This document shows positions 5,501 to 64,000 of a DNA stretch of 64,000 nucleotides, in pieces. Numbering within the stretch: position 1 is the stretch's first letter; every line of letters begins with the position of its first letter. The stretch comes from Candidatus Woesearchaeota archaeon (GTDB lineage Archaea; Nanobdellota; Nanobdellia; Woesearchaeales; JAWBMQ01): contig JAWBOS010000001.1 in NCBI GenBank assembly GCA_038825875.1, positions 14,881-78,880 on the forward strand, given 5' to 3'. Both the position numbers and the translations under genes were made by a program. Below the pieces are notes generated by a model. That model had not been told where the DNA came from, ran no database searches, and saw only the letters and a list, made by a program, of their open reading frames with translations.

Positions 5501-8500
5501 ATATTGATATTACTTTTCATCCCTTCTTTATTAGCCGCATCAATTGCAACAACATAATACTTATACACACCATCTATTACATAGTCAAAGTATTGTGTAG
5601 AAGTAGTATATGTAAGCAAATAAAAGACGTCATTTTCAAATGCTCTGTAGATAGCATATCTCACTGCTCCAGAGATTGGATTCCAACTGAGATTTATAAT
5701 TCCATCCCGATCATATCTATCAAGAACTTGCAAGACCGGAGCTGGTAAGATTGCATTTAGAATAAAAAACCTATAGGAAACATTTGCAAGCAAATTGTTT
5801 AAATTATCTCTTGCCTCTAACCACATAAGATATGCTCCATCTGGAAATTGGGTTGTATTGAGTATAAAAGAAGTTTCTAAACCATCAAAAATTTTTGTAG
5901 GAATGGTTGTATTTAAAAAGATCTTTAGATTATAGGTATTTTGTGGTAAATGAACCACATATGTCTTTAAACCATAAATATAAGAATCATTAACAAGATC
6001 ATAAACAAATAGTGAATAGTTTCCTATTAAATTGTCAAATATCACAAAGTACAATCTACTGCAACCAGTATTATTTAATTCATCTTTAGCACAGGCATAA
6101 ATCTGATGTGAACCCTGCAAATAATTTAAAGTGTTAACCTCAATAAAATTTTGATTTAAAAATGTGCAGTTTCCATCTATACAAAAAGTATAATTTACAA
6201 TAGAGCTATCATCGCTTGCAATAATATCAAATCTAACCATTCCCTTGAAGATTTGATTATTAGTTACTTCTTTTCCATCATGATAAACACTTACTAATGG
6301 AGCGCTAAAATCAATAAATGTATTCTTAGTTACACTTAAAGTATTTCCTGCTCTGTCATACCCTACAACCATAACAGAACATAGTCCATATGAAGATGGA
6401 TTAACATATGCACTTCCACTGATTCTAGTCAAAAATATATTGCAAATATAGATATCATAGTACTGAATATCTGGATCCCCCACAGGATCAATCAAAAAAG
6501 GAACATTAACCCTTGATGGCAAGCTAAAGTCAAAATTAATTTTACCATCTATCGTTATATTTGAAACATTAGTTTCTGCCAATAAATTATTCTCAAAATC
6601 ATAAGCTTTTGCAATAATGTAACAATTTTCAACTTCTGATCCAGAATATTGGGAAATTCCCCAGATCGTTGTTAAAGAATAAATTGTAGGACTTAAAAAA
6701 CCACAATTAGTATTTAAAGTAATGTATTTAGTATTTGAAGGAGCCAAAAATCTTAATGTAAAATTTTGTGCTTTTAGAATCGCATTATCCTCTAAATTCA
6801 AGATTCTTAAAATTTCTCTAAAATTATTGACATATTTTGAAAAAGAGACTTCTGCAAAATTATTGAAATCATCTCGTACAACAATTCTAAAGTAATGCAA
6901 ACCATCAGAGAATAAAGTTGTATCTAATGGAAAATAAGCATTAAATGCCCTTTGTTCAAAGGTATATGCAAAATCAGGAAATATAACTAATTCATCAATA
7001 GCACCTGAATAATAATCAGAAGAACCATCATTACATCCTATAAAAAGATTCTCCGTAGGTTGAACATTGCCAGAAAAACTACCTGCGTGATATTTTGAAC
7101 CATCAATAACGATTTCTACTCTCTTATTAGTGTTATCTATTAAAAAAAGTACATGATGCCATTGATCATCATTTATTGAATTTTCTGTTTGCAAAACTGT
7201 TTGTCCATTTACAAAAGCTTCCAATCGACCATTATTTAATCTTAGCATATATCCCGATGTTGTTGACATCTTATCAATCAATACTCCACTGGTTGCCGTT
7301 GTTTTGATCCAAAAACTTATACCCAAATTAGGATTAGGATTCAATAAAGAATCATGATTAACCCTCAAACAATTTGAAGAAAAATAAATAGCCGATCCGT
7401 AATAACCAGGACCATAAGTAAAATCAGAACCTATTTGAGTGACAGTTCTAGCATAAAAAGATCTATCTGCGTATGTACCATCAAATGGCAAAGTTAGCGA
7501 AGAGTTTTTATATTCTGTAAACCTTGAAGAATCAACAAAAAGCTGAAAATCATATTTTGGATTTATATCAAAATAATAAAAACCAAAAACTGATTTGTTG
7601 TAAACATAATATGCATCTAATGTCTGAAACAAACTGGGTTTTGTAAAATCTGCATACAAATTAAAATTCCCTGAAACAATATTTCCAGCTATGTCTTTAC
7701 AAGCATAATATATTGTGTTTATTCCTTCATTAAGAATAAAACTTATCGTATGTTTTCTAAGACCACTCAGGATATAAGGCATATTATCAAAAGGAAGATT
7801 AGATCTTGAGATCCTACACTCAGCATCTTCGTTTGTGTCAAATTCTATAACTATTGGATTATAGTTATACTTTTGATCAAAAGGGATGTTATAGACAATA
7901 GGAGCACTTGAATCAATTTCTAAAATTTTAGCAACCTTCAAAACATTTCCTTGTCGATCTAAAGCAGTAATGTTCACCAAAAAATTTCCACTACTTATTG
8001 ATGGAACTGTAAAATTAAAACAATAGACACCATCATTAGCAACTGAATCGCAATCTGTTCCATCATCTCTCATTTTTCCTGTAATTGGAGAAAAGAAGTG
8101 TATTGTAATATTTACATCATAATTAATGTCATTTTGATAATAAACTATTGCATTATCTCCAGGTTTAAATTTTTGCTTAGAAAAATAAACAATTCCAACT
8201 GAACTAGGAGCAACACAAGAATAAATTTGAGACAAGAAGAAGGATCCAACATAAACATAGCCACAATATCTAATAATCCCATCATACAAAATATTATCTC
8301 TAACATCTCCAAATTCCACTATTAGATTGTTTATTGTAGAATTTAGAATATGAGAATATAGAATAGTTGAGTTTAAAACAGTTGATGAATCTACTACAGA
8401 ATGGTTTATTATAGAATTAACAACATTAGAATTAATCACAATGCTGTCTGGGCTGATGTATGACTCTGAAAAACCTGAAAAAAGTGTAAACAACAGGAAA

Positions 8501-8547
8501 ATTAATAAAAACAACCATTCTTTTCTTTTAAATAACAAATCAGTCAT
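2524..8547 (-). CDS. Giant (2007 aa) secreted surface/adhesin-like protein with Sec signal peptide, LamG/concanavalin-like lectin domain and FN3-like repeats; heavily N-glycosylatable
   Basis: N-terminal MTDLLFKRKEWLFLLIFLLFTLFSGFS signal; LamG-like signature about aa 385-540 (ISFWIKTT..GVLI..LRLNNGRLEAFVNGQ..NDDQWHHVLF..VEIVIDG..LFIGCNDG..YSGAIDELVIF); FN3-like LSWNPISGAVRYAIYR; dozens of N-x-S/T; no C-terminal TM anchor. Confidence 0.6.
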   Translation of the reverse strand: MTDLLFKRKEWLFLLIFLLFTLFSGFSESYISPDSIVINSNVVNSIINHSVVDSSTVLNSTILYSHILNSTINNLIVEFGDVRDNILYDGIIRYCGYVYVGSFFLSQIYSCVAPSSVGIVYFSKQKFKPGDNAIVYYQNDINYDVNITIHFFSPITGKMRDDGTDCDSVANDGVYCFNFTVPSISSGNFLVNITALDRQGNVLKVAKILEIDSSAPIVYNIPFDQKYNYNPIVIEFDTNEDAECRISRSNLPFDNMPYILSGLRKHTISFILNEGINTIYYACKDIAGNIVSGNFNLYADFTKPSLFQTLDAYYVYNKSVFGFYYFDINPKYDFQLFVDSSRFTEYKNSSLTLPFDGTYADRSFYARTVTQIGSDFTYGPGYYGSAIYFSSNCLRVNHDSLLNPNPNLGISFWIKTTATSGVLIDKMSTTSGYMLRLNNGRLEAFVNGQTVLQTENSINDDQWHHVLFLIDNTNKRVEIVIDGSKYHAGSFSGNVQPTENLFIGCNDGSSDYYSGAIDELVIFPDFAYTFEQRAFNAYFPLDTTLFSDGLHYFRIVVRDDFNNFAEVSFSKYVNNFREILRILNLEDNAILKAQNFTLRFLAPSNTKYITLNTNCGFLSPTIYSLTTIWGISQYSGSEVENCYIIAKAYDFENNLLAETNVSNITIDGKINFDFSLPSRVNVPFLIDPVGDPDIQYYDIYICNIFLTRISGSAYVNPSSYGLCSVMVVGYDRAGNTLSVTKNTFIDFSAPLVSVYHDGKEVTNNQIFKGMVRFDIIASDDSSIVNYTFCIDGNCTFLNQNFIEVNTLNYLQGSHQIYACAKDELNNTGCSRLYFVIFDNLIGNYSLFVYDLVNDSYIYGLKTYVVHLPQNTYNLKIFLNTTIPTKIFDGLETSFILNTTQFPDGAYLMWLEARDNLNNLLANVSYRFFILNAILPAPVLQVLDRYDRDGIINLSWNPISGAVRYAIYRAFENDVFYLLTYTTSTQYFDYVIDGVYKYYVVAIDAANKEGMKSNINITEVRRYGVIGVLSISEEIVKPNDIITVRFLAFDNRTLFVNLTAFGAVYPLYFDDYTIEGYLYQRNITVPNQNGVFEFLLSVTDLFGFSYIFRKYISVDNIIPTPALNLHTLSARGFVQYNQSVTALPFIYYDVATGSLDECLVMESVLIDEFSPVTLEYNQILYSGEFIGRPLVKDFALKGNFSKSISLNNGTIFSRFYIEPQNKFSMDLGVNFIYNGSNLNFCSHSIRLDRGWHEIIVQFNETSSVVYLDGYLYACSGFVLSQVSGINVTIDRIVITPSLQKDFSYKQCSGGLYLTTYDGNKTVFAVVRDLAGNVNITQNKILLDRTGAKLDITPPSEPSIVVPKKWINLTDYIEFAFVGSYDFEQSLLNLPLQYEYELYKNENLNATGITNSTKIIFYYNGTYQQDDRFYIKVRSCNLAGYCSNWSISDNVTADLTPPSVPLILSTTHMNCIAPQGNYWTNAKIFSANWTANDLGSGVQDYAYGLYTYNISAYNVSFVYSFVNSTNVSMPLSVDGELYFYVAARDLAGNIGDLGVFRICSDFTMPTQPKLIYAYQIENTTILTLAFTKSLDFESKIIRFYEVQVLNFSSIVFSKNYTLSELVDLDQYFALNISGLPENKNYYVRVRSYDAALNPSYWSDNTFTELDTTPPLFLYTTPSGIVINDQVKVTVKTDEVAYCRYSIDGGSTYYNFLYSDSTFHETMVYLPGSGNVIVDVVCINKVGLFNTTQIVFNKALQNTLAGASLTVSLATTPIVSETLMSINVQVLKDGMGIANIPRNWFKIIVNSIDVNYEVKDFSMIDFGGGQYLLTFKAPRYNSMEFLSNEFTFTIVLSDGYNTFARSITSPVDEFIGYFQLEETSNSLFKMLYNVTQDYAYGIGVDDSRVFAVEGANAIKGDLSSGSFYLFVTTPDFNPRTVESYLYKNLIETEQITFGNLRSIEKDNLLVFIPLQNFKFKTKNFKLDSGVRKIRIVNIGYDSFGNPLLDFEVVE

Positions 8548-8597
8548 TTTAGAAATTATGTGAAGATTTATTAAAAAATTTTAATAATCATTTACTA

Positions 8598-9770
8598 GTG
8601 GTTAAAATGTCTCAAAACTGCATAGGAATTTTAAAAACCTATCCAAAACTTGAAAAGTACTGTGAAATAGAACTTGAAAGATACTGCAAGAATTACAAAA
8701 TTGAAGAAATTTTTGATGGTTGTGTTGTCTTTTCTGCTCAAAATTTTGAAAGTTTTGAAAAATTGGCTTATTTCACTCAAAGCTCAGAACATGTTTCATA
8801 TTTACTAGCACAAAAAGAAAATGATAGGTGGCAAAAAATACAATTCTTCCTTCTAGACATATTAAAAAAAACAGGAAAAACAAAGTATTGGATTGAAATC
8901 TCACATGATCCTTCAATTCCCATAAACGAAGAAACTTACAAGAGAAAAATCCAAGAATGCACAGCATTACTTGATTCTGATTTTATCCTGAATCCAAAAG
9001 ACAAAGATTTTACATTAACAATATTCATAACTAAAACAAAAGAATTGTTAGGTTTAAACATTCTACAAGGAGACTTGAGTAAGAGATCTTACAAAATATA
9101 TCTCCTTCCAAACTCGATTAAAGGTACTTTAGGATTCTTACTGAGTGCCATGTGTGGAATATGTCACAATAAACCAAATTCTATAAATAAAGTATTGTAC
9201 CTGTTTTCTGGAGATGGTATTTTACCTATTGAATTTTCTCTTTGGACTAAGGGATTGTCTGTAAGATATTATGATAAGAGAGTGCTAAAAAAATCCTTCC
9301 TAAATATTAGCAATCATACTTTTGAAGATTTTGATAAAGAAATAGCCTCTTTTGTGAAATCTTTGAATCAAAATTTTGAAATCACATCATGTGATAGTGA
9401 ATTAAAACATCTTACCTTTGCCCAACGAAATGCAAAATTGGCAGGAGTAGAAAAAGATATAATTTTTAGAAAAATATCCTTAGATCTTTTGGATTTAAAA
9501 TTTGAAGAAAATTATTTTGATGCAATAGTCTCTTTTCTCCTTTTATTTAATAATCGAACAGAAGAAGAAAAAATAAACAAATTCTACAAGTATTACTTCT
9601 ATCAAACAGAGTACATTCTAAAGAAAAATAAAAACACAACTATTCTTGTCAGAAATGCACATCTTGAAAGAATTAAGGAAATCGCAAAGGAATTTAATTT
9701 TTCCCTGGAAAGAATAGAACCAATTAGAGAAGATATTGCAATCTTGTTATTAAAAAACAACAAAAAATAA
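8598..9770 (+). CDS. Trm14/RlmL-like THUMP-methyltransferase homolog (motif I-like LYLFSGDGILPIEF; NPPY catalytic motif apparently replaced)
   Basis: RSYKIYLLPNSIKGTLGFLLSAM resembles RGYR..APLKETLAAALL of Trm14/RlmL; SGDGILPIEF resembles CGSGTILIEAA; the expected D-[LI]-I-V-T-NPPYG position reads DAIVSFLLLF. Confidence 0.35.
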   Translation: MVKMSQNCIGILKTYPKLEKYCEIELERYCKNYKIEEIFDGCVVFSAQNFESFEKLAYFTQSSEHVSYLLAQKENDRWQKIQFFLLDILKKTGKTKYWIEISHDPSIPINEETYKRKIQECTALLDSDFILNPKDKDFTLTIFITKTKELLGLNILQGDLSKRSYKIYLLPNSIKGTLGFLLSAMCGICHNKPNSINKVLYLFSGDGILPIEFSLWTKGLSVRYYDKRVLKKSFLNISNHTFEDFDKEIASFVKSLNQNFEITSCDSELKHLTFAQRNAKLAGVEKDIIFRKISLDLLDLKFEENYFDAIVSFLLLFNNRTEEEKINKFYKYYFYQTEYILKKNKNTTILVRNAHLERIKEIAKEFNFSLERIEPIREDIAILLLKNNKK

Positions 9771-14059: not shown

Positions 14060-14132
14060 GGGCCGGTGGTCTAGTGGCTATGACGTCGCCCTTACAAGGC
14101 GGAGGTCGCCGGTTCAATTCCGGCCCGGCCCA
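14060..14132 (+). tRNA. tRNA-Val (anticodon TAC), no encoded CCA
   Basis: Acceptor GGGCCGG/CCGGCCC, anticodon stem TCGCC/GGCGG with loop CTTACAA, T-arm GCCGG-TTCAATT-CCGGC, discriminator A. Confidence 0.85.
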
Positions 14133-60631: not shown

Positions 60632-60763
60632 TCACTCTATGCTTGATCTATCACAACACCATCTATCATCCCATCCGTCATTTATCCAACCTCCATTATT
60701 TTGGCCCCAGTCATCCCAATTGGGATGGGAATTGGTTCCATTCACAAAATTTGTCAATTCCAT
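60632..60763 (-). CDS. Unannotated 43-aa Trp/Asp/Gly/Asn-rich peptide MELTNFVNGTNSHPNWDDWGQNNGGWINDGWDDRWCCDRSSIE: candidate RiPP precursor
   Basis: ATG (60763..60761) 2 nt after the stop of the upstream PEP-utilizer gene, with GGAGGTGA RBS inside that gene's 3' end; TGA stop at 60634..60632 followed by a T-run. 6 Trp in 43 aa in a 30%-GC genome; repeated WDDW / GWDDRW units and a CC pair. Confidence 0.45.
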   Translation of the reverse strand: MELTNFVNGTNSHPNWDDWGQNNGGWINDGWDDRWCCDRSSIE

Positions 60764-60765
60764 TC

Positions 60766-61113
60766 TTATTCACCTCCTTCGTGAACTTGAATTGTTCCAT
60801 CTTCAAAATTAATAACTAATTTATCACCTGTTTTAATTACTGTATCAGCATTCTCAACGCCAACTATTGATGGAAAATTAAGTTCTCTAAAAATAATTGA
60901 AGCATGACTCAACAATCCCCCAAAAGATGTAACTACACACTTAAACTGTAAAATTTTTTCAATATAATCCAAATTAACTCTTTTACAAATCAAAATTTTC
61001 TCACTAGGATGATTGGGCAAATTTTCACAAAATGGATCAACATATGCAATACCTTCAATAATATTATTATGGGGTTTTACGACTACAGATCCTTTAAGTA
61101 TCATTTTTCTCAC
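60766..61113 (-). CDS. Stand-alone PEP-utilizing-enzyme mobile (phosphohistidine swivel) domain protein
   Basis: VVTSFGGLLSHASIIFRELNFPSIVGV matches the PEP-utilizers signature (GG..SHAAI.ARE.G.P.VVG) with the phosphorylatable His; 115 aa only. Confidence 0.7.
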   Translation of the reverse strand: MRKMILKGSVVVKPHNNIIEGIAYVDPFCENLPNHPSEKILICKRVNLDYIEKILQFKCVVTSFGGLLSHASIIFRELNFPSIVGVENADTVIKTGDKLVINFEDGTIQVHEGGE

Positions 61114-62029
61114 ATACTATTTCTTCTTGAATCCTTAATATTGTAGGACTAAGAGAGGGATAATTCTCAATAACATCACTAACCTTAAAATAAGGTAATC
61201 TAAAATATCTGCTTATTGTTATAAAATAAGAAAGTTTTGAATCAAAATCATTATCTGGTAACATAAAATAGAATGCATTGTTGTAATACTTGCAGTTGAT
61301 TATGGGGTCTTGAACATATATATTTTCAGGTGGTTCTAAATTCAAAAGGATTTTTCTTAATTCTTCTGCAGAAATTTTTTTTCTTTCAAAAATTTCTAGG
61401 AAAAGTCTTGTAATATCATAATAACAATCCAAATAAAATCTATTGTAATCAACAAAAGAAAAAAGGTAATAATAATTCAAATTTTCTTTCAATTTCTTTT
61501 TTCGAAATCTCAATATCTTTTTTGTGTTTTTTGAAATTTTCGACTGATCCAAAAACAGATAATGACGTGGCAATGCATAAAAAACCCATCTAAAGGAGAA
61601 AAGAGGTGTATCAAAAAAAGAAGAATCTAAATTTGCATTCAAAATTTCCTTCTCTAATGAATGATAAACTAGGATATAGAGATGATAATAAGTAAGAAAA
61701 TTCAAATAAGATTGAAACATTTTAGAAATTTCAGAGGTATAATTTGCTAAAAATCGATAAAAATAATAATCTAGATTCATTTTTACAATTTCTAATCTGG
61801 GTTTAAATTCAAAATTCTTGGGAACAAGATGATACTTCAATCTATCGTTTAAATCAAAGTATTCCTTATCATCAATTTTAGTCAAATAAAACTTATCATT
61901 CTTCTCTATTATCTCAATTTTTGGTTTTTCATGAAAAAAGCAAGATCTGAATCTAAAGGCAATCTGATTAACAATATCTACAATGTTTTCATTTTTTATT
62001 TCTAACAAACTTGAATCTTTCATTTTCAA
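61094..62029 (-). CDS. Hypothetical Tyr/Phe-rich 311-aa protein, translationally coupled between the rSAM and PEP-utilizer genes
   Basis: No recognisable motif by eye; 4-nt overlap with rSAM gene, about 11-20 nt overlap with PEP-utilizer gene. Confidence 0.4.
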   Translation of the reverse strand: MKMKDSSLLEIKNENIVDIVNQIAFRFRSCFFHEKPKIEIIEKNDKFYLTKIDDKEYFDLNDRLKYHLVPKNFEFKPRLEIVKMNLDYYFYRFLANYTSEISKMFQSYLNFLTYYHLYILVYHSLEKEILNANLDSSFFDTPLFSFRWVFYALPRHYLFLDQSKISKNTKKILRFRKKKLKENLNYYYLFSFVDYNRFYLDCYYDITRLFLEIFERKKISAEELRKILLNLEPPENIYVQDPIINCKYYNNAFYFMLPDNDFDSKLSYFITISRYFRLPYFKVSDVIENYPSLSPTILRIQEEIVCEKNDT

Positions 62030-63258
62030 GATATTCTTTTTGGAGTTTTATAAAATAAATCACTATGTTCATATTTCTTAAAAAATGTTTTTGAAAAGTA
62101 AAACAACAAAGCAGGATTTCTTGTTACATACTCAAAAAAAATCTCTAACCAAATCTTATTATATTCACAAGAGTGTTTCAAAGATTTAAAGGAAAACAAA
62201 TATGCTTTTCCAACACAAGGATGTCTGCATATATAATTAAATTTACAAGTCTCACATCCCAAAGTATCTGAGATTTTCTTTGAAAGGTTTAAAATCTTCT
62301 TTCTATTATCTTGAAAATCCTCAGAATTCATTAAAAAATCCTCTAATCCAATAACACTATCACATCCGTATATTTTTCCATCCATAGAGAATCCTATAAT
62401 CCACTTAAATGCTCCGCAGTTTTCATCATAACACAAAGAACCAGTCATCCCCAGTATTCTTTCAGCATATAATCTAACAGGATCTAATGTTATACTCAAT
62501 CTTTTTCTTAGATAGTAATCAATTAGTAATTCGACATTCCTCCTCACATTTTTTAAATCAGGTAGCAAAGAAAGATTATCTGTTTCCACAATATTATAAA
62601 GCACTCCTTTAAACATCTTATAGTTCAACAGTTTTTTGAAATCTTCAAAGATTTTAGAATCGTTAGTAGTATTAATTAAGTAAATAATTCCAAAGGGAAT
62701 TTTTAATTTTTCAAGAACATTCATTGCTTGAATTGCATAATTAGGATTTCTGGCACAATTCTCACCAAACCCATCAAAACTTAGACCAATTGAAACGTTC
62801 TTTTTATGCAAAAATATGGAAAATTCTTCATCCAATCCATAACCAGAGGTCTGAATTTCAAATCTAACATTTTTCAAGTTTCTTGATTCAAAAACCTCTA
62901 TAGTTTTTCTAATTCCATCTTTGTTTGTAAGTGGTTCAGCGCCATGGAATATAAGAACAACGGGTTTTTTCAGACTTTCAACAAATGAAGATAACTTATT
63001 AATTGTTTCATCTGTTAATTTGTACTCTTTTCTTGTCTCATTCAAAGTATCTAATCGTTTTACAAAGCAATAAGTGCAATTTAGAAAACAATCGTGAGAA
63101 ACATCAAACACAATAGTTAAATGTGGCTCTGCATAATTGTGTGCATTATATTCACTAATCTCTTCTTGAACGACAGGTTCATAACCTGTTCTAGTAATGT
63201 AAAAATGATTTTTAATATTCCAAATCGACCAACACTTGGAATTATAGACTAAATTCAT
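62026..63258 (-). CDS. Radical SAM enzyme with C-terminal SPASM domain (peptide-maturase-like)
   Basis: HDCFLNCTYCF (CxxxCxxC); C-terminal CDENCGAF..GCDS..CETCKFNYICRHPCVG SPASM-type cysteine pattern. Start trimmed to internal Met at 63258 to avoid overlap with aIF2-beta. Confidence 0.7.
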   Translation of the reverse strand: MNLVYNSKCWSIWNIKNHFYITRTGYEPVVQEEISEYNAHNYAEPHLTIVFDVSHDCFLNCTYCFVKRLDTLNETRKEYKLTDETINKLSSFVESLKKPVVLIFHGAEPLTNKDGIRKTIEVFESRNLKNVRFEIQTSGYGLDEEFSIFLHKKNVSIGLSFDGFGENCARNPNYAIQAMNVLEKLKIPFGIIYLINTTNDSKIFEDFKKLLNYKMFKGVLYNIVETDNLSLLPDLKNVRRNVELLIDYYLRKRLSITLDPVRLYAERILGMTGSLCYDENCGAFKWIIGFSMDGKIYGCDSVIGLEDFLMNSEDFQDNRKKILNLSKKISDTLGCETCKFNYICRHPCVGKAYLFSFKSLKHSCEYNKIWLEIFFEYVTRNPALLFYFSKTFFKKYEHSDLFYKTPKRIS

Positions 63259-63909: not shown

Positions 63910-63982
63910 TGCCTCAGTAGCTCAGCTGGTAGAGCGGTTGCCTCGTAAGCAACAGGTCGGGGGTTCGAATCCCCCCTGGGGC
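63910..63982 (+). tRNA. tRNA-Thr (anticodon CGT), no encoded CCA
   Basis: Acceptor GCCTCAG/CTGGGGC (one G-U), D-arm GCTC/GAGC, anticodon stem GTTGC/GCAAC with loop CTCGTAA, T-arm GGGGG-TTCGAAT-CCCCC, discriminator T. Confidence 0.8.
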
Positions 63983-64000
63983 TTTTTAGTTTAGATTAAA

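What the first reader, a model, noticed from the sequence alone, without database searches (positions are those of the whole stretch)
60766..62029. Stand-alone PEP-utilizer phosphohistidine domain plus an unknown 311-aa partner inside the candidate RiPP operon
The swivel His domain (GGLLSHASIIFRELNFP) normally sits inside PEP synthase, PPDK or rifampin-phosphotransferase-type enzymes between an ATP-grasp and a substrate-binding domain. Here it is a separate 115-aa protein overlapping a 311-aa Tyr/Phe-rich unknown that could be a diverged ATP-grasp-like (PPDK_N) partner. Together they could form a split phosphotransferase that phosphorylates the peptide or an intermediate, an unusual tailoring step for a RiPP.
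Basis: inference. Interest (0 to 1): 0.55.

Follow-up and report, generated by a model that had tools for sequence, protein, structure and literature searches.

The report
Phosphohistidine domain in archaeal peptide-maturation cassette
A tiny-celled (DPANN) archaeon carries a tightly packed four-gene cassette in which a radical-SAM peptide-modifying enzyme is paired with a new all-helical protein and a free-standing phosphate-carrier domain.

Summary
On the minus strand, a 309-aa Tyr/Phe-rich protein ("X", 61094-62023) overlaps by 11 nt a 112-aa stand-alone PEP-utilizer swivel domain (60766-61104; PF00391, E 2e-14; catalytic-type His intact). A radical SAM/SPASM maturase lies 2 nt upstream, and a 43-aa Trp/Asp/Asn-rich precursor 2 nt downstream.

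X has no Pfam, NCBIfam, PADLOC or PHROGs hit and only five relatives among 1.84 billion representative proteins. All five lineages place X next to a stand-alone swivel. All three with enough sequence also carry the same rSAM subfamily and homologous precursors. In one lineage X is fused to the C-terminus of the rSAM. The pair therefore belongs to a conserved RiPP cassette.

The ATP-grasp interpretation fails. The AlphaFold model (pTM 0.77) is all-alpha, Foldseek finds no PDB match, and profile comparisons with PPDK_N, PpsA-like and rifampin-phosphotransferase-like proteins are null. No ATP-grasp or PEP-binding domain lies in the 64-kb window or the related loci.

My best reading is that X is a new rSAM-bound, peptide-handling subunit that docks a phospho-His carrier charged in trans. 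The phosphoryl donor and its target remain unknown. I class it as a new variant of rSAM RiPP systems; interest 0.6.

The parts
62026..63258 (-). Radical SAM/SPASM peptide maturase, 410 aa from the ATG at 63258. The mechanical ORF extends to 63435.
   Evidence: PF04055 at E 2.6e-13. SPASM domain TIGR04085 scores 30.7 against a cut-off of 27. The best NCBIfam hits are peptide maturases (CbpB, PapB, anSME, cyclophane formers), all far below their cut-offs. The CX3CX2C motif CFLNCTYC and the SPASM cysteines are conserved in the alignment with homologues, and the 410-aa start agrees with them. Only about 55 residues precede the cluster motif, which leaves no room for a canonical N-terminal RRE.
61094..62023 (-). 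Protein X, 309 aa: founding member of a new all-alpha, Tyr/Phe-rich family that partners the rSAM enzyme and the swivel domain.
   Evidence: No hit in Pfam, NCBIfam, PADLOC or PHROGs. Only 5 relatives among 1.84 billion representative proteins. Fused to the rSAM C-terminus in P0003. A paralogous copy forms the C-terminal half of a 620-aa protein. AF2 model is all-alpha with a small N-terminal beta-alpha-beta-beta-alpha unit, pTM 0.77. No structural match. Conserved residues are N13, E78, D85, Y86, Y106, R174, K175, K179, D192, Y247, Y252 and Y288-P289.
60766..61104 (-). Stand-alone PEP-utilizer (phosphohistidine swivel) domain, 112 aa. The putative phospho-acceptor is His67 in LSHASIIFRE.
   Evidence: PF00391 at E 2.3e-14. 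Closest solved relatives are the swivel domains of archaeal PEP synthase (8a8e), rifampin phosphotransferase (5fbs) and Geobacillus pyruvate kinase (2e28), at E 1e-15 to 1e-16. G62, L65-S66-H67, I70, R73-E74 and P78 are invariant in six stand-alone homologues. The gene overlaps the 3' end of X by 11 nt.
60632..60763 (-). 43-aa precursor peptide MELTNFVNGTNSHPNWDDWGQNNGGWINDGWDDRWCCDRSSIE (Trp 11.6%, Asn 16.3%, Asp 14.0%).
   Evidence: A GGAGGTG site lies 7 nt upstream of the ATG. The peptide is 50% identical to a 43-aa ORF beside the L004 cassette (MEL...HPNWGDNWGTNHGGWNGDGWTDKW...). It shares the MEL start and the WxGDxWxxxW core with two peptides in L007. It is identical in other assemblies, with one synonymous change.

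Best explanation
The region encodes two co-translated subunits of a conserved four-gene radical-SAM RiPP cassette (rSAM/SPASM maturase, X, swivel, Trp/Asp/Asn-rich precursor) found in a few DPANN-type archaeal lineages.

X is a new all-alpha protein that works physically with the rSAM enzyme and is fused to it in one lineage. It most likely serves as the peptide-handling or specificity module, which would fit an rSAM that lacks room for a canonical N-terminal recognition domain.

The 112-aa protein is an intact phosphohistidine swivel domain that docks on X. This is the same order (variable domain, then C-terminal swivel) seen in rifampin phosphotransferase, PigC/RedH and phenylphosphate synthase alpha. 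No ATP-grasp or PEP-binding domain is encoded nearby. His67 would therefore be charged in trans by an unidentified donor, then pass the phosphoryl group to the X-bound peptide or to an intermediate made by the rSAM enzyme.

**Shown:** operon packing, co-occurrence, the fusion, conservation of the His motif, the fold class of X, and absence of a cis ATP-grasp.

**Inferred:** formation of an X-swivel complex, phosphorylation of His67, and the phosphoryl donor and acceptor.
For: - **One operon.** The four genes are packed with 2-nt, -11-nt and 2-nt junctions.
- **X and swivel are linked.** X is adjacent to a stand-alone swivel in all five lineages that contain X: the window type, L004/L013/L014, L007/L011/L012/L070, L005 and L010.
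- **Link to the rSAM and precursors.** The same rSAM subfamily and homologous precursors are present in all three lineages with enough sequence.
- **Specific to this subfamily.** X and the swivel are absent from 45 loci that carry more distant rSAM maturases.
- **Fusions.** P0003 is an rSAM-X fusion followed by an overlapping swivel gene. The 620-aa protein of L007-type loci is a degenerate rSAM-like half plus an X paralogue, again followed by the swivel.
- **Swivel looks catalytic.** The His motif is invariant, and the domain is most similar to catalytic swivels of PEP synthase and rifampin phosphotransferase.
- **The architecture recurs.** Other 'unknown ~270-300 aa protein, then stand-alone swivel' pairs occur in neighbouring rSAM cassettes of the same kinds of archaea: L012 5029-7230, L071 214-3537, L004 12973-14065 and L123 5015-6231. 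This matches the modular logic of variable substrate module plus constant phospho-carrier.
Against: - No phosphoryl donor module was found. Three PPDK_N queries and the PpsA C-terminal domain hit nothing in the 64-kb window or any cassette locus, although the PPDK_N queries hit about 60 control bacterial loci.
- X has no recognisable nucleotide-, PEP- or peptide-binding fold.
- It has no PqqD/RRE signal.
- No hydroxyl residue is conserved at a fixed position across the precursors, so no obvious phospho-acceptor exists.
- The rSAM-X fusion model was poor (pTM 0.42).
- In Geobacillus pyruvate kinase (2e28), a swivel-like domain with no assigned phosphotransfer role is known (my recollection of the literature). 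An intact motif therefore does not prove catalysis.
Confidence: 0.4

Rival explanations
1. Non-catalytic adaptor. X plus the swivel act only as a leader-peptide recognition and chaperone unit, replacing an RRE for an rSAM enzyme that lacks one. The swivel has been co-opted as a structural or regulatory domain, and no phosphoryl group reaches the peptide.
For: The rSAM has only about 55 residues before its CX3CX2C motif, too few for a canonical RRE. X is fused to the rSAM in one lineage. No phosphoryl-donor domain lies in cis. No acceptor residue is conserved in the precursors. A swivel homologue of unknown role exists at the C-terminus of Geobacillus pyruvate kinase (2e28).
Against: The complete catalytic-type motif (GG-x-LSH-x-x-I-x-x-RE-x-x-x-P) is invariant across swivels only 30-42% identical to the window's. 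A pure scaffold would not be expected to keep it. X shows no PqqD/RRE signal. Its N-terminal beta-alpha-beta-beta-alpha unit does not have the canonical RRE topology.
Confidence: 0.25
2. Self-sufficient new kinase. X is itself a nucleotide- or PEP-binding enzyme of a new all-alpha fold. It charges His67 and also binds the peptide, so X plus swivel form a complete two-component phosphotransferase.
For: Charged and polar residues are invariant or nearly so: R174, K175, K179, D192, E78, D85, N13. X and the swivel are translationally coupled. No other donor lies in cis.
Against: There is no P-loop, ATP-grasp, GHKL or other known nucleotide-binding signature, no structural match to any kinase, and no family hit. 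All-alpha domains that phosphorylate a His from ATP or PEP are not known to me.
Confidence: 0.15
3. One reading: X is a diverged ATP-grasp (PPDK_N-like) domain, and the pair is a split PEP-synthase or rifampin-phosphotransferase-type enzyme.
For: X is about 310 aa, similar in size to PPDK_N. Split PPDK_N / central-swivel systems do exist, for example the haloarchaeal and bacterial 'PEP-utilizing enzyme' plus 'PEP/pyruvate-binding protein' pairs.
Against: The AF2 model is all-alpha and lacks the beta-sheets of an ATP-grasp. A second model of the X domain in P0003 is again all-alpha. Foldseek finds no PDB hit, although the sequence search shows that PEP synthase, PPDK and RPH structures are deposited in the PDB. 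hhalign probability is below 1% against PpsA, PPDK_N proteins and PpsA-like N-domains.
Confidence: 0.03
4. Not a RiPP system. The rSAM, X and swivel mature a protein or cofactor, or act in metabolism, and the small ORF is incidental.
For: The cassette sits among housekeeping genes (eIF-2beta, PAN, S3Ae, FtsZ). No peptidase or exporter is present in the window cassette.
Against: Homologous small ORFs accompany the cassette in three lineages, at different positions relative to the rSAM gene; they share the MEL start, and four of the five share the WxGDxWxxxW core. The window peptide has a strong ribosome-binding site. The rSAM's best family matches are peptide maturases with a SPASM domain.
Confidence: 0.05

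Closest known systems
Rifampin phosphotransferase (RPH) and the PigC/RedH family: ATP-grasp, then a variable substrate-binding domain, then a C-terminal His swivel
   Same: The window swivel aligns end to end with the C-terminal swivel of RPH (5fbs residues 774-865, E 1e-15). It also hits the RedH, PigC and Rph models. A variable domain immediately N-terminal of the swivel is mirrored by the gene order X then swivel, with overlapping genes.
   Different: There is no ATP-grasp anywhere nearby. X is unrelated in sequence and predicted fold to the RPH central domain, and unrelated in sequence to a Bacillus PPDK_N-swivel protein. The parts are separate polypeptides. The presumed substrate is a ribosomal peptide in an rSAM cassette.
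Phenylphosphate-synthase-type split dikinases: a PpsA-like 'PEP-utilizing enzyme' (~600 aa, N-domain plus swivel; PRK08296) with a separate PPDK_N subunit
   Same: The best NCBIfam match of the swivel is PRK08296.1-5 (E 8e-15). These systems show that PEP-synthase-like enzymes can be split into separate subunits.
   Different: Those systems always carry an adjacent PPDK_N gene, and this cassette has none. The X profile against a 7-sequence PpsA-like N-domain profile gives probability 0.1%. Here the swivel itself is also split off.
PTS Enzyme I N-terminal domain (swivel plus helical HPr-binding subdomain)
   Same: A swivel domain paired with an all-helical module that docks a protein substrate for His-to-substrate phosphotransfer (established knowledge). 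EI swivels are detectable homologues of this one (E 4e-9 to 1e-8).
   Different: EI is charged by its own PEP-binding C-terminal barrel, which is absent here. X (309 aa) has no detectable similarity to solved structures, and no EI entry is among the Foldseek matches listed.
Radical SAM/SPASM RiPP maturases with accessory RRE partners (PqqE/PqqD, three-residue cyclophane 'triceptide' maturases, ranthipeptide PapB)
   Same: A CX3CX2C plus SPASM enzyme sits next to short precursors. It makes weak hits to CbpB, PapB, XyeB, YhhB, DynA and AmcB. The Trp-rich repeated core suits aromatic cross-linking (inference).
   Different: All family scores are far below their cut-offs. The accessory proteins are a new helical family and a phosphohistidine domain rather than a PqqD-like RRE. 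No paper in the searched library links PEP-utilizer domains with rSAM RiPPs.
C-terminal swivel-like domain of Geobacillus/Staphylococcus pyruvate kinase (2e28, 3t05)
   Same: It is a homologous swivel domain occurring outside a dikinase (E 2e-15).
   Different: There it is fused to a metabolic enzyme. Here it is a free 112-aa protein in a peptide-maturation operon.

Membership tests
PEP-utilizers mobile (phosphohistidine swivel) domain, PF00391 | Profile match above Pfam's gathering score, covering the whole domain | tested here: met
   53.2 bits against a cut-off of 23.1; model positions 3-71 of 72.
PEP-utilizers mobile (phosphohistidine swivel) domain, PF00391 | Conserved phospho-acceptor His in the GG-x-x-S/T-H-A-x-I-x-x-R-E motif | tested here: met
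   GGLLSHASIIFRE in the window. G62, L65, S66, H67, I70, R73, E74 and P78 are invariant in six stand-alone homologues. The motif aligns to the TSHAAI of PEP synthase 8a8e.
PEP-utilizers mobile (phosphohistidine swivel) domain, PF00391 | His is actually phosphorylated and transfers the phosphoryl group | not testable with these tools
   Needs 32P labelling or intact-mass spectrometry.
PPDK_N / ATP-grasp nucleotide-binding domain (proposed for X) | Sequence or profile similarity to PPDK_N | tested here: not met
   No Pfam or NCBIfam hit at E<=1. hhalign probability below 1% against E. coli PpsA and a haloarchaeal PPDK_N protein.
PPDK_N / ATP-grasp nucleotide-binding domain (proposed for X) | Alpha/beta ATP-grasp fold with antiparallel beta-sheets | tested here: not met
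   AF2 model with pTM 0.77: 14 helices and only three short strands at the N-terminus. No Foldseek hit at E<=0.001 in the PDB.
Split PEP-synthase/RPH-type dikinase (ATP-grasp + substrate domain + swivel) | All three modules encoded together | tested here: not met
   Only the swivel is found. PPDK_N queries hit about 60 control loci but none of the window, L001-L014, L070 or L071; the PEP-utilizers_C (PpsA C-terminal) query hit nothing in any locus.
Split PEP-synthase/RPH-type dikinase (ATP-grasp + substrate domain + swivel) | Central substrate-binding domain homologous to RPH or PpsA-like N-domain | tested here: not met
   hhalign probability 0.1% against the PpsA-like N-domain profile. No RPH structure appears among the listed Foldseek matches. 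Caveat: the PpsA-like N-domain has no solved homologue detectable by sequence.
Radical SAM/SPASM RiPP maturase cassette | CX3CX2C radical SAM core plus SPASM auxiliary-cluster cysteines | tested here: met
   PF04055 at E 2.6e-13. TIGR04085 scores 30.7 against 27. The cysteines are invariant in the three-lineage alignment.
Radical SAM/SPASM RiPP maturase cassette | Co-located, conserved short precursor peptide(s) | tested here: met
   43-aa ORF with a ribosome-binding site. Homologous peptides accompany the L004 and L007 cassettes.
Radical SAM/SPASM RiPP maturase cassette | Membership of a named maturase family (CbpB, PapB, XyeB, etc.) | tested here: not met
   The best hit, CbpB, scores 84 bits against a cut-off of 375. 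All others are also far below their cut-offs.
RiPP recognition element (PqqD-like RRE), considered for the X N-terminus | PqqD-family profile match or beta3-alpha3 winged-helix topology | tested here: inconclusive
   No PqqD hit at E<=1. The predicted N-terminal unit is beta-alpha-beta-beta-alpha, which is not the canonical order. Peptide binding was not tested.

The most novel reading that the evidence does not exclude
A previously unrecognised RiPP tailoring logic in DPANN archaea. Radical-SAM cross-linking of Trp/Asp/Asn-rich peptides would be coupled to a phosphohistidine relay, in which free-standing swivel domains serve interchangeable, fold-novel specificity subunits. These subunits include X, the 271/299-aa family, and the N-domain of the 650-aa rSAM protein. 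The phosphoryl group would be delivered to the peptide, for example as a phospho-ester or an acyl-phosphate on the abundant Asp residues, or used to drive a step of maturation.
Probability: 0.3. Interest if true: 0.8.

Novelty: new variant of a known kind. Interest (0 to 1): 0.6.

Why it matters
Radical-SAM RiPP pathways are known to use RRE domains, peptidases, methyltransferases and similar accessories. I found no described case with a phosphohistidine swivel domain (literature searches were negative). If His67 is functional, this would be a new way to bring phosphoryl chemistry, or an energy or status signal, into peptide maturation.

It would also define at least one new protein fold family (X) whose only known context is this cassette. 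In addition, it gives a concrete and very small (about 2.6 kb) candidate natural-product cassette from DPANN archaea, whose secondary metabolism is almost unexplored. The cassette is small enough to synthesise and test in E. coli.

The recurrence of 'unknown domain plus swivel' pairs in DPANN archaea and CPR bacteria suggests a wider, unstudied use of the swivel module in ultra-small microbes.

Tried and rejected
**Searches for relatives of X**
- A word-indexed homologue search with X, the swivel and an X alignment returned only self or near-self hits. The exhaustive HMMER search was needed.
- The search for related loci with the X alignment or the six-sequence swivel alignment failed for lack of a conserved stretch.
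- The rSAM alignment found nothing in the GTDB genomes.

**Family and structure libraries**
- Pfam, NCBIfam, PADLOC and PHROGs give nothing for X.
- A PDB sequence search with the X profile gave only a chance proteasome hit at E 0.45.
- Foldseek against the PDB and BFVD gave no hit at E<=0.001. The top MarE/I-DmoI hits have TM<=0.16-0.2 and were rejected as noise.

**Profile comparisons**
- hhalign of X against E. coli PpsA, the haloarchaeal PpsA-like and PPDK_N proteins, a Bacillus PPDK_N-swivel protein and a 7-sequence PpsA-like N-domain profile was null in every case.
- A superficially similar 'R..K(E/K)R...YYY' stretch aligned at E 0.47-0.49, and I rejected it.
- The other swivel partners (L012 271 aa, L004 269 aa, L123 299 aa, L071 650-aa N-half, twelve CPR N-domains) are unrelated to X. 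Only L123-299 against L012-271 shows a weak link (E 6e-5).

**Modelling**
- AF2 of the natural rSAM-X fusion was too poor to read domain docking (pTM 0.42).

**Other**
- dN/dS between strains is uninformative because only 1-12 codons differ per gene.
- A pseudogene or decayed PEP-synthase remnant was rejected. The ORFs are intact in 4 assemblies, are conserved across 5 lineages, and X shows no similarity to any PEP-synthase part.
Full report
**Observation**

The window is AT-rich (about 30% GC) and archaeal. It encodes LonB, PAN, FtsZ, S3Ae and eIF-2beta. An NCBI MAG named Candidatus Woesearchaeota carries a 99%-identical copy of the swivel protein in the same gene context.

On the minus strand four genes are packed head to tail.
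- A radical SAM/SPASM enzyme at 62026-63258, 410 aa from the ATG that agrees with homologues.
- A 309-aa protein, here called X, at 61094-62023.
- A 112-aa PEP-utilizer domain at 60766-61104.
- A 43-aa ORF at 60632-60763.

The junctions are 2 nt, an 11-nt overlap, and 2 nt. The small ORF has a GGAGGTG site upstream.

The 112-aa protein matches PF00391 over the whole model (E 2.3e-14, 53 bits against a cut-off of 23) and contains GGLLSHASIIFRELNFP. X is 19% Tyr+Phe against 10% background and has no Pfam or NCBIfam hit.

**Comparative evidence**

X is very rare. The word-indexed search found only itself. An exhaustive HMMER search of 1.84 billion representative proteins found five relatives at E 3e-15 to 6e-7. 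Their genomic contexts are informative.
- **P0003 (L004, also L013/L014)** is a 736-aa fusion of the same rSAM/SPASM subfamily to X. An overlapping 111-aa stand-alone swivel gene follows it, and two Trp/Asp/Asn-rich small ORFs precede it.
- **P0005 (L006-L009, L011, L012, and L070 from an 'uncultured archaeon' MAG)** lies in the order peptides, rSAM, X, 620-aa protein, swivel.
- **P0004 (L005)** is followed directly by a swivel gene.
- **P0006 (L010)** lies just downstream of one.

The 620-aa protein is a second, degenerate copy of the fusion. Its C-terminal half is an X paralogue (hhalign E 3e-9). Its N-terminal half weakly resembles the rSAM barrel but lacks the cluster cysteines (E 5e-5).

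I ran HMMs of X, the rSAM and the swivel over every ORF of 59 loci. X and stand-alone swivels occur only in these five lineages, and never in 45 loci with more distant rSAM maturases.

The precursors are homologous. The window peptide and the L004 peptide are 50% identical (MEL...HPNW.D.WG.N.GGW..DGW.D.W). The L007 peptides share the MEL start and a WxGDxWxxxW core.

The cassette is therefore a real, conserved unit, and X, the swivel and the rSAM are functionally linked.

**What X is not**

An AlphaFold2 model built from the six-sequence family alignment is reasonably confident (pLDDT 77, pTM 0.77). It is almost entirely helical, with only a small beta-alpha-beta-beta-alpha unit at the N-terminus. 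A second model of the X domain inside P0003 is again all-alpha.
- Foldseek finds nothing significant in the PDB (best E 0.49, TM 0.16), although PEP synthase, PPDK and rifampin phosphotransferase structures are deposited there (shown by the sequence search). It finds nothing in BFVD either.
- Profile comparisons of X are all null, with probabilities below 1%. The targets were E. coli PpsA, a haloarchaeal split pair (a 632-aa PpsA-like 'PEP-utilizing enzyme' and a 360-aa PPDK_N protein), a Bacillus PPDK_N-swivel protein, and a profile of seven PpsA-like N-domains.

X is therefore not an ATP-grasp or PPDK_N domain. It is also not detectably the substrate domain of known swivel enzymes. One caveat applies: the PpsA-like N-domain has no solved structure detectable by sequence, so a fold-level relationship to that domain is not fully excluded.

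**The swivel**

Its closest solved relatives are catalytic swivels of archaeal PEP synthase (8a8e, 9dae) and rifampin phosphotransferase (5fbs), plus the pyruvate-kinase C-terminal domain (2e28). Its best NCBIfam match is the C-terminal swivel of PRK08296-type proteins.

Across six stand-alone homologues only 30-42% identical to the window's, the G62 / LSH / I70 / RE / P78 residues are invariant (the first motif Gly, G63, is Ser in the short L004 copy). That argues for retained phospho-His chemistry.

The donor is missing. phmmer with E. coli PpsA, and with three PPDK_N queries and the PpsA C-terminal domain, finds no ATP-grasp or PEP-binding barrel in the 64-kb window or in any cassette locus. 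The same PPDK_N queries hit about 60 bacterial control loci, including CPR genomes.

**A wider pattern**

The same kinds of archaea carry further 'unknown partner then stand-alone swivel' pairs.
- L012 5029-7230: a Cys-rich small ORF, a 359-aa rSAM, a 271-aa unknown and a 101-aa swivel.
- L071, from the same MAG as L070: a 42-aa ORF, a 365-aa rSAM, a 650-aa protein with an unknown N-half and an rSAM/SPASM C-half, and a 109-aa swivel.
- L004 12973-14065: a 269-aa unknown plus a 92-aa swivel.
- L123, a Woesearchaeota MAG: a 299-aa unknown overlapping a 106-aa swivel, in a non-rSAM cluster.

These partners are unrelated to X. Only the 299-aa and 271-aa proteins show a weak link (E 6e-5).

CPR bacteria carry tandem arrays of 300-520-aa proteins with unknown N-domains and C-terminal swivels. 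The constant swivel with a variable partner matches the modular logic of the PEP-synthase superfamily (variable substrate module, constant phospho-carrier). That is the main reason I favour a carrier role over a purely structural one.

**Mechanism**

My best reading, at about 0.4 confidence, has three parts.
- X is a new rSAM-bound, peptide-handling or specificity subunit. This would fit an rSAM with only about 55 residues ahead of its cluster motif, too few for a canonical RRE.
- The swivel docks on X.
- His67, charged in trans, passes a phosphoryl group to the peptide or to an rSAM-generated intermediate.

The rSAM itself probably cross-links the repeated Trp-containing motifs. This is an inference from weak hits to cyclophane, ranthipeptide and other peptide maturases, all far below their cut-offs.

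The rivals are as follows.
- A non-catalytic adaptor or chaperone role for X plus the swivel (0.25).
- X as a fold-novel kinase that charges the swivel itself (0.15).
- A system that is not a RiPP system (0.05).
- The original ATP-grasp idea (0.03).

**Comparison with known systems, and novelty**

The pair works most like the C-terminal two-thirds of rifampin phosphotransferase, PigC or phenylphosphate synthase alpha, or like the Enzyme I N-domain (a helical docking module plus swivel). It fails membership of those families because it has no ATP-grasp or PEP barrel and X is not homologous to their domains.

The cassette as a whole is a radical-SAM/SPASM RiPP system, which is a known kind, with an accessory pair I could not find described. 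I therefore rate it a new variant of a known kind, interest 0.6.

**Limits**

No complex model could be made. No whole-genome search for a donor was possible. All functional steps beyond gene linkage and fold class are inference.

Noticed in passing
L012:4835-7230 (also L004:12973-14065): A second cassette lies next to the first in the L007-type lineage: a Cys-rich 64-aa ORF, a 359-aa radical SAM, a 271-aa unknown and a 101-aa stand-alone swivel, followed by a third rSAM (432 aa, 7578-8876). L004 has a 269-aa unknown plus a 92-aa swivel near its cassette. These partners are unrelated to X.
   Followed up: partly
L071:79-3537 (same MAG as L070): A further rSAM cassette with a stand-alone swivel: a 42-aa ORF ending in CGC, a 365-aa rSAM/SPASM, a 650-aa protein (unknown ~300-aa N-domain fused to an rSAM/SPASM domain) and a 109-aa swivel.
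   Followed up: partly
L123:3172-7276 (Candidatus Woesearchaeota MAG): A 299-aa unknown protein overlaps (ATGA) a 106-aa stand-alone swivel. The cluster also holds an AMP-binding enzyme, a split methyltransferase-like ORF and a CN-hydrolase-like protein, with no rSAM. The 299-aa protein is weakly related to the L012 271-aa partner (hhalign E 6e-5).
   Followed up: partly
L108:5299-8905, L116:3424-7396, L133:499-5190, L124, L139 (CPR/Patescibacteria MAGs): Tandem arrays of two or three 300-520-aa proteins. Each has an unknown N-terminal region (no Pfam hit in those scanned) and a C-terminal PEP-utilizer swivel. The N-domains are unrelated to X, to PpsA-like N-domains and to PPDK_N.
   Followed up: partly
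L007:3033-4895 (also L006, L008, L009, L011, L012, L070): The 620-aa protein between X and the swivel looks like a degenerate duplicate of the rSAM-X fusion. Its C-half is an X paralogue (E 3e-9). Its N-half weakly resembles the rSAM barrel (E 5e-5) but lacks the CX3CX2C cysteines, so it may be a pseudo-enzyme subunit.
   Followed up: partly
L010:106-1384: In this short contig the order is swivel, a 42-aa basic ORF (not Trp-rich), then X. X ends about 45 residues early relative to its homologues. This could be a frameshift, an assembly error or a decaying copy.
   Followed up: no
window:13910-14019: This tRNA match spans 110 nt for a 71-position model, so it probably contains an intron, as is common in archaea. 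A second tRNA lies at 14060-14132 and a third at 63911-63983.
   Followed up: no
L004:5994-7998: An M16-family peptidase pair (404 aa with Peptidase_M16 and M16_C domains, plus a 250-aa protein) lies on the opposite strand about 1.7 kb upstream of the first precursor ORF of the L004 cassette (about 2 kb from the rSAM-X fusion gene). It is a candidate leader peptidase and is absent from the window cassette.
   Followed up: no
L062:2147-8276 (Bacillus mycoides plasmid p539): A 718-aa PPDK_N...swivel protein sits directly upstream of a hypothetical protein, a B12-binding radical SAM, an adenylate-forming enzyme and a carrier protein. This is another, unrelated co-location of a swivel enzyme with a radical SAM enzyme.
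   Followed up: no
window:54011-56141: A MoxR-type AAA+ ATPase (332 aa) is followed by an overlapping VWA-domain protein (381 aa), a typical MoxR-VWA chaperone pair. It is unrelated to the cassette.
   Followed up: no
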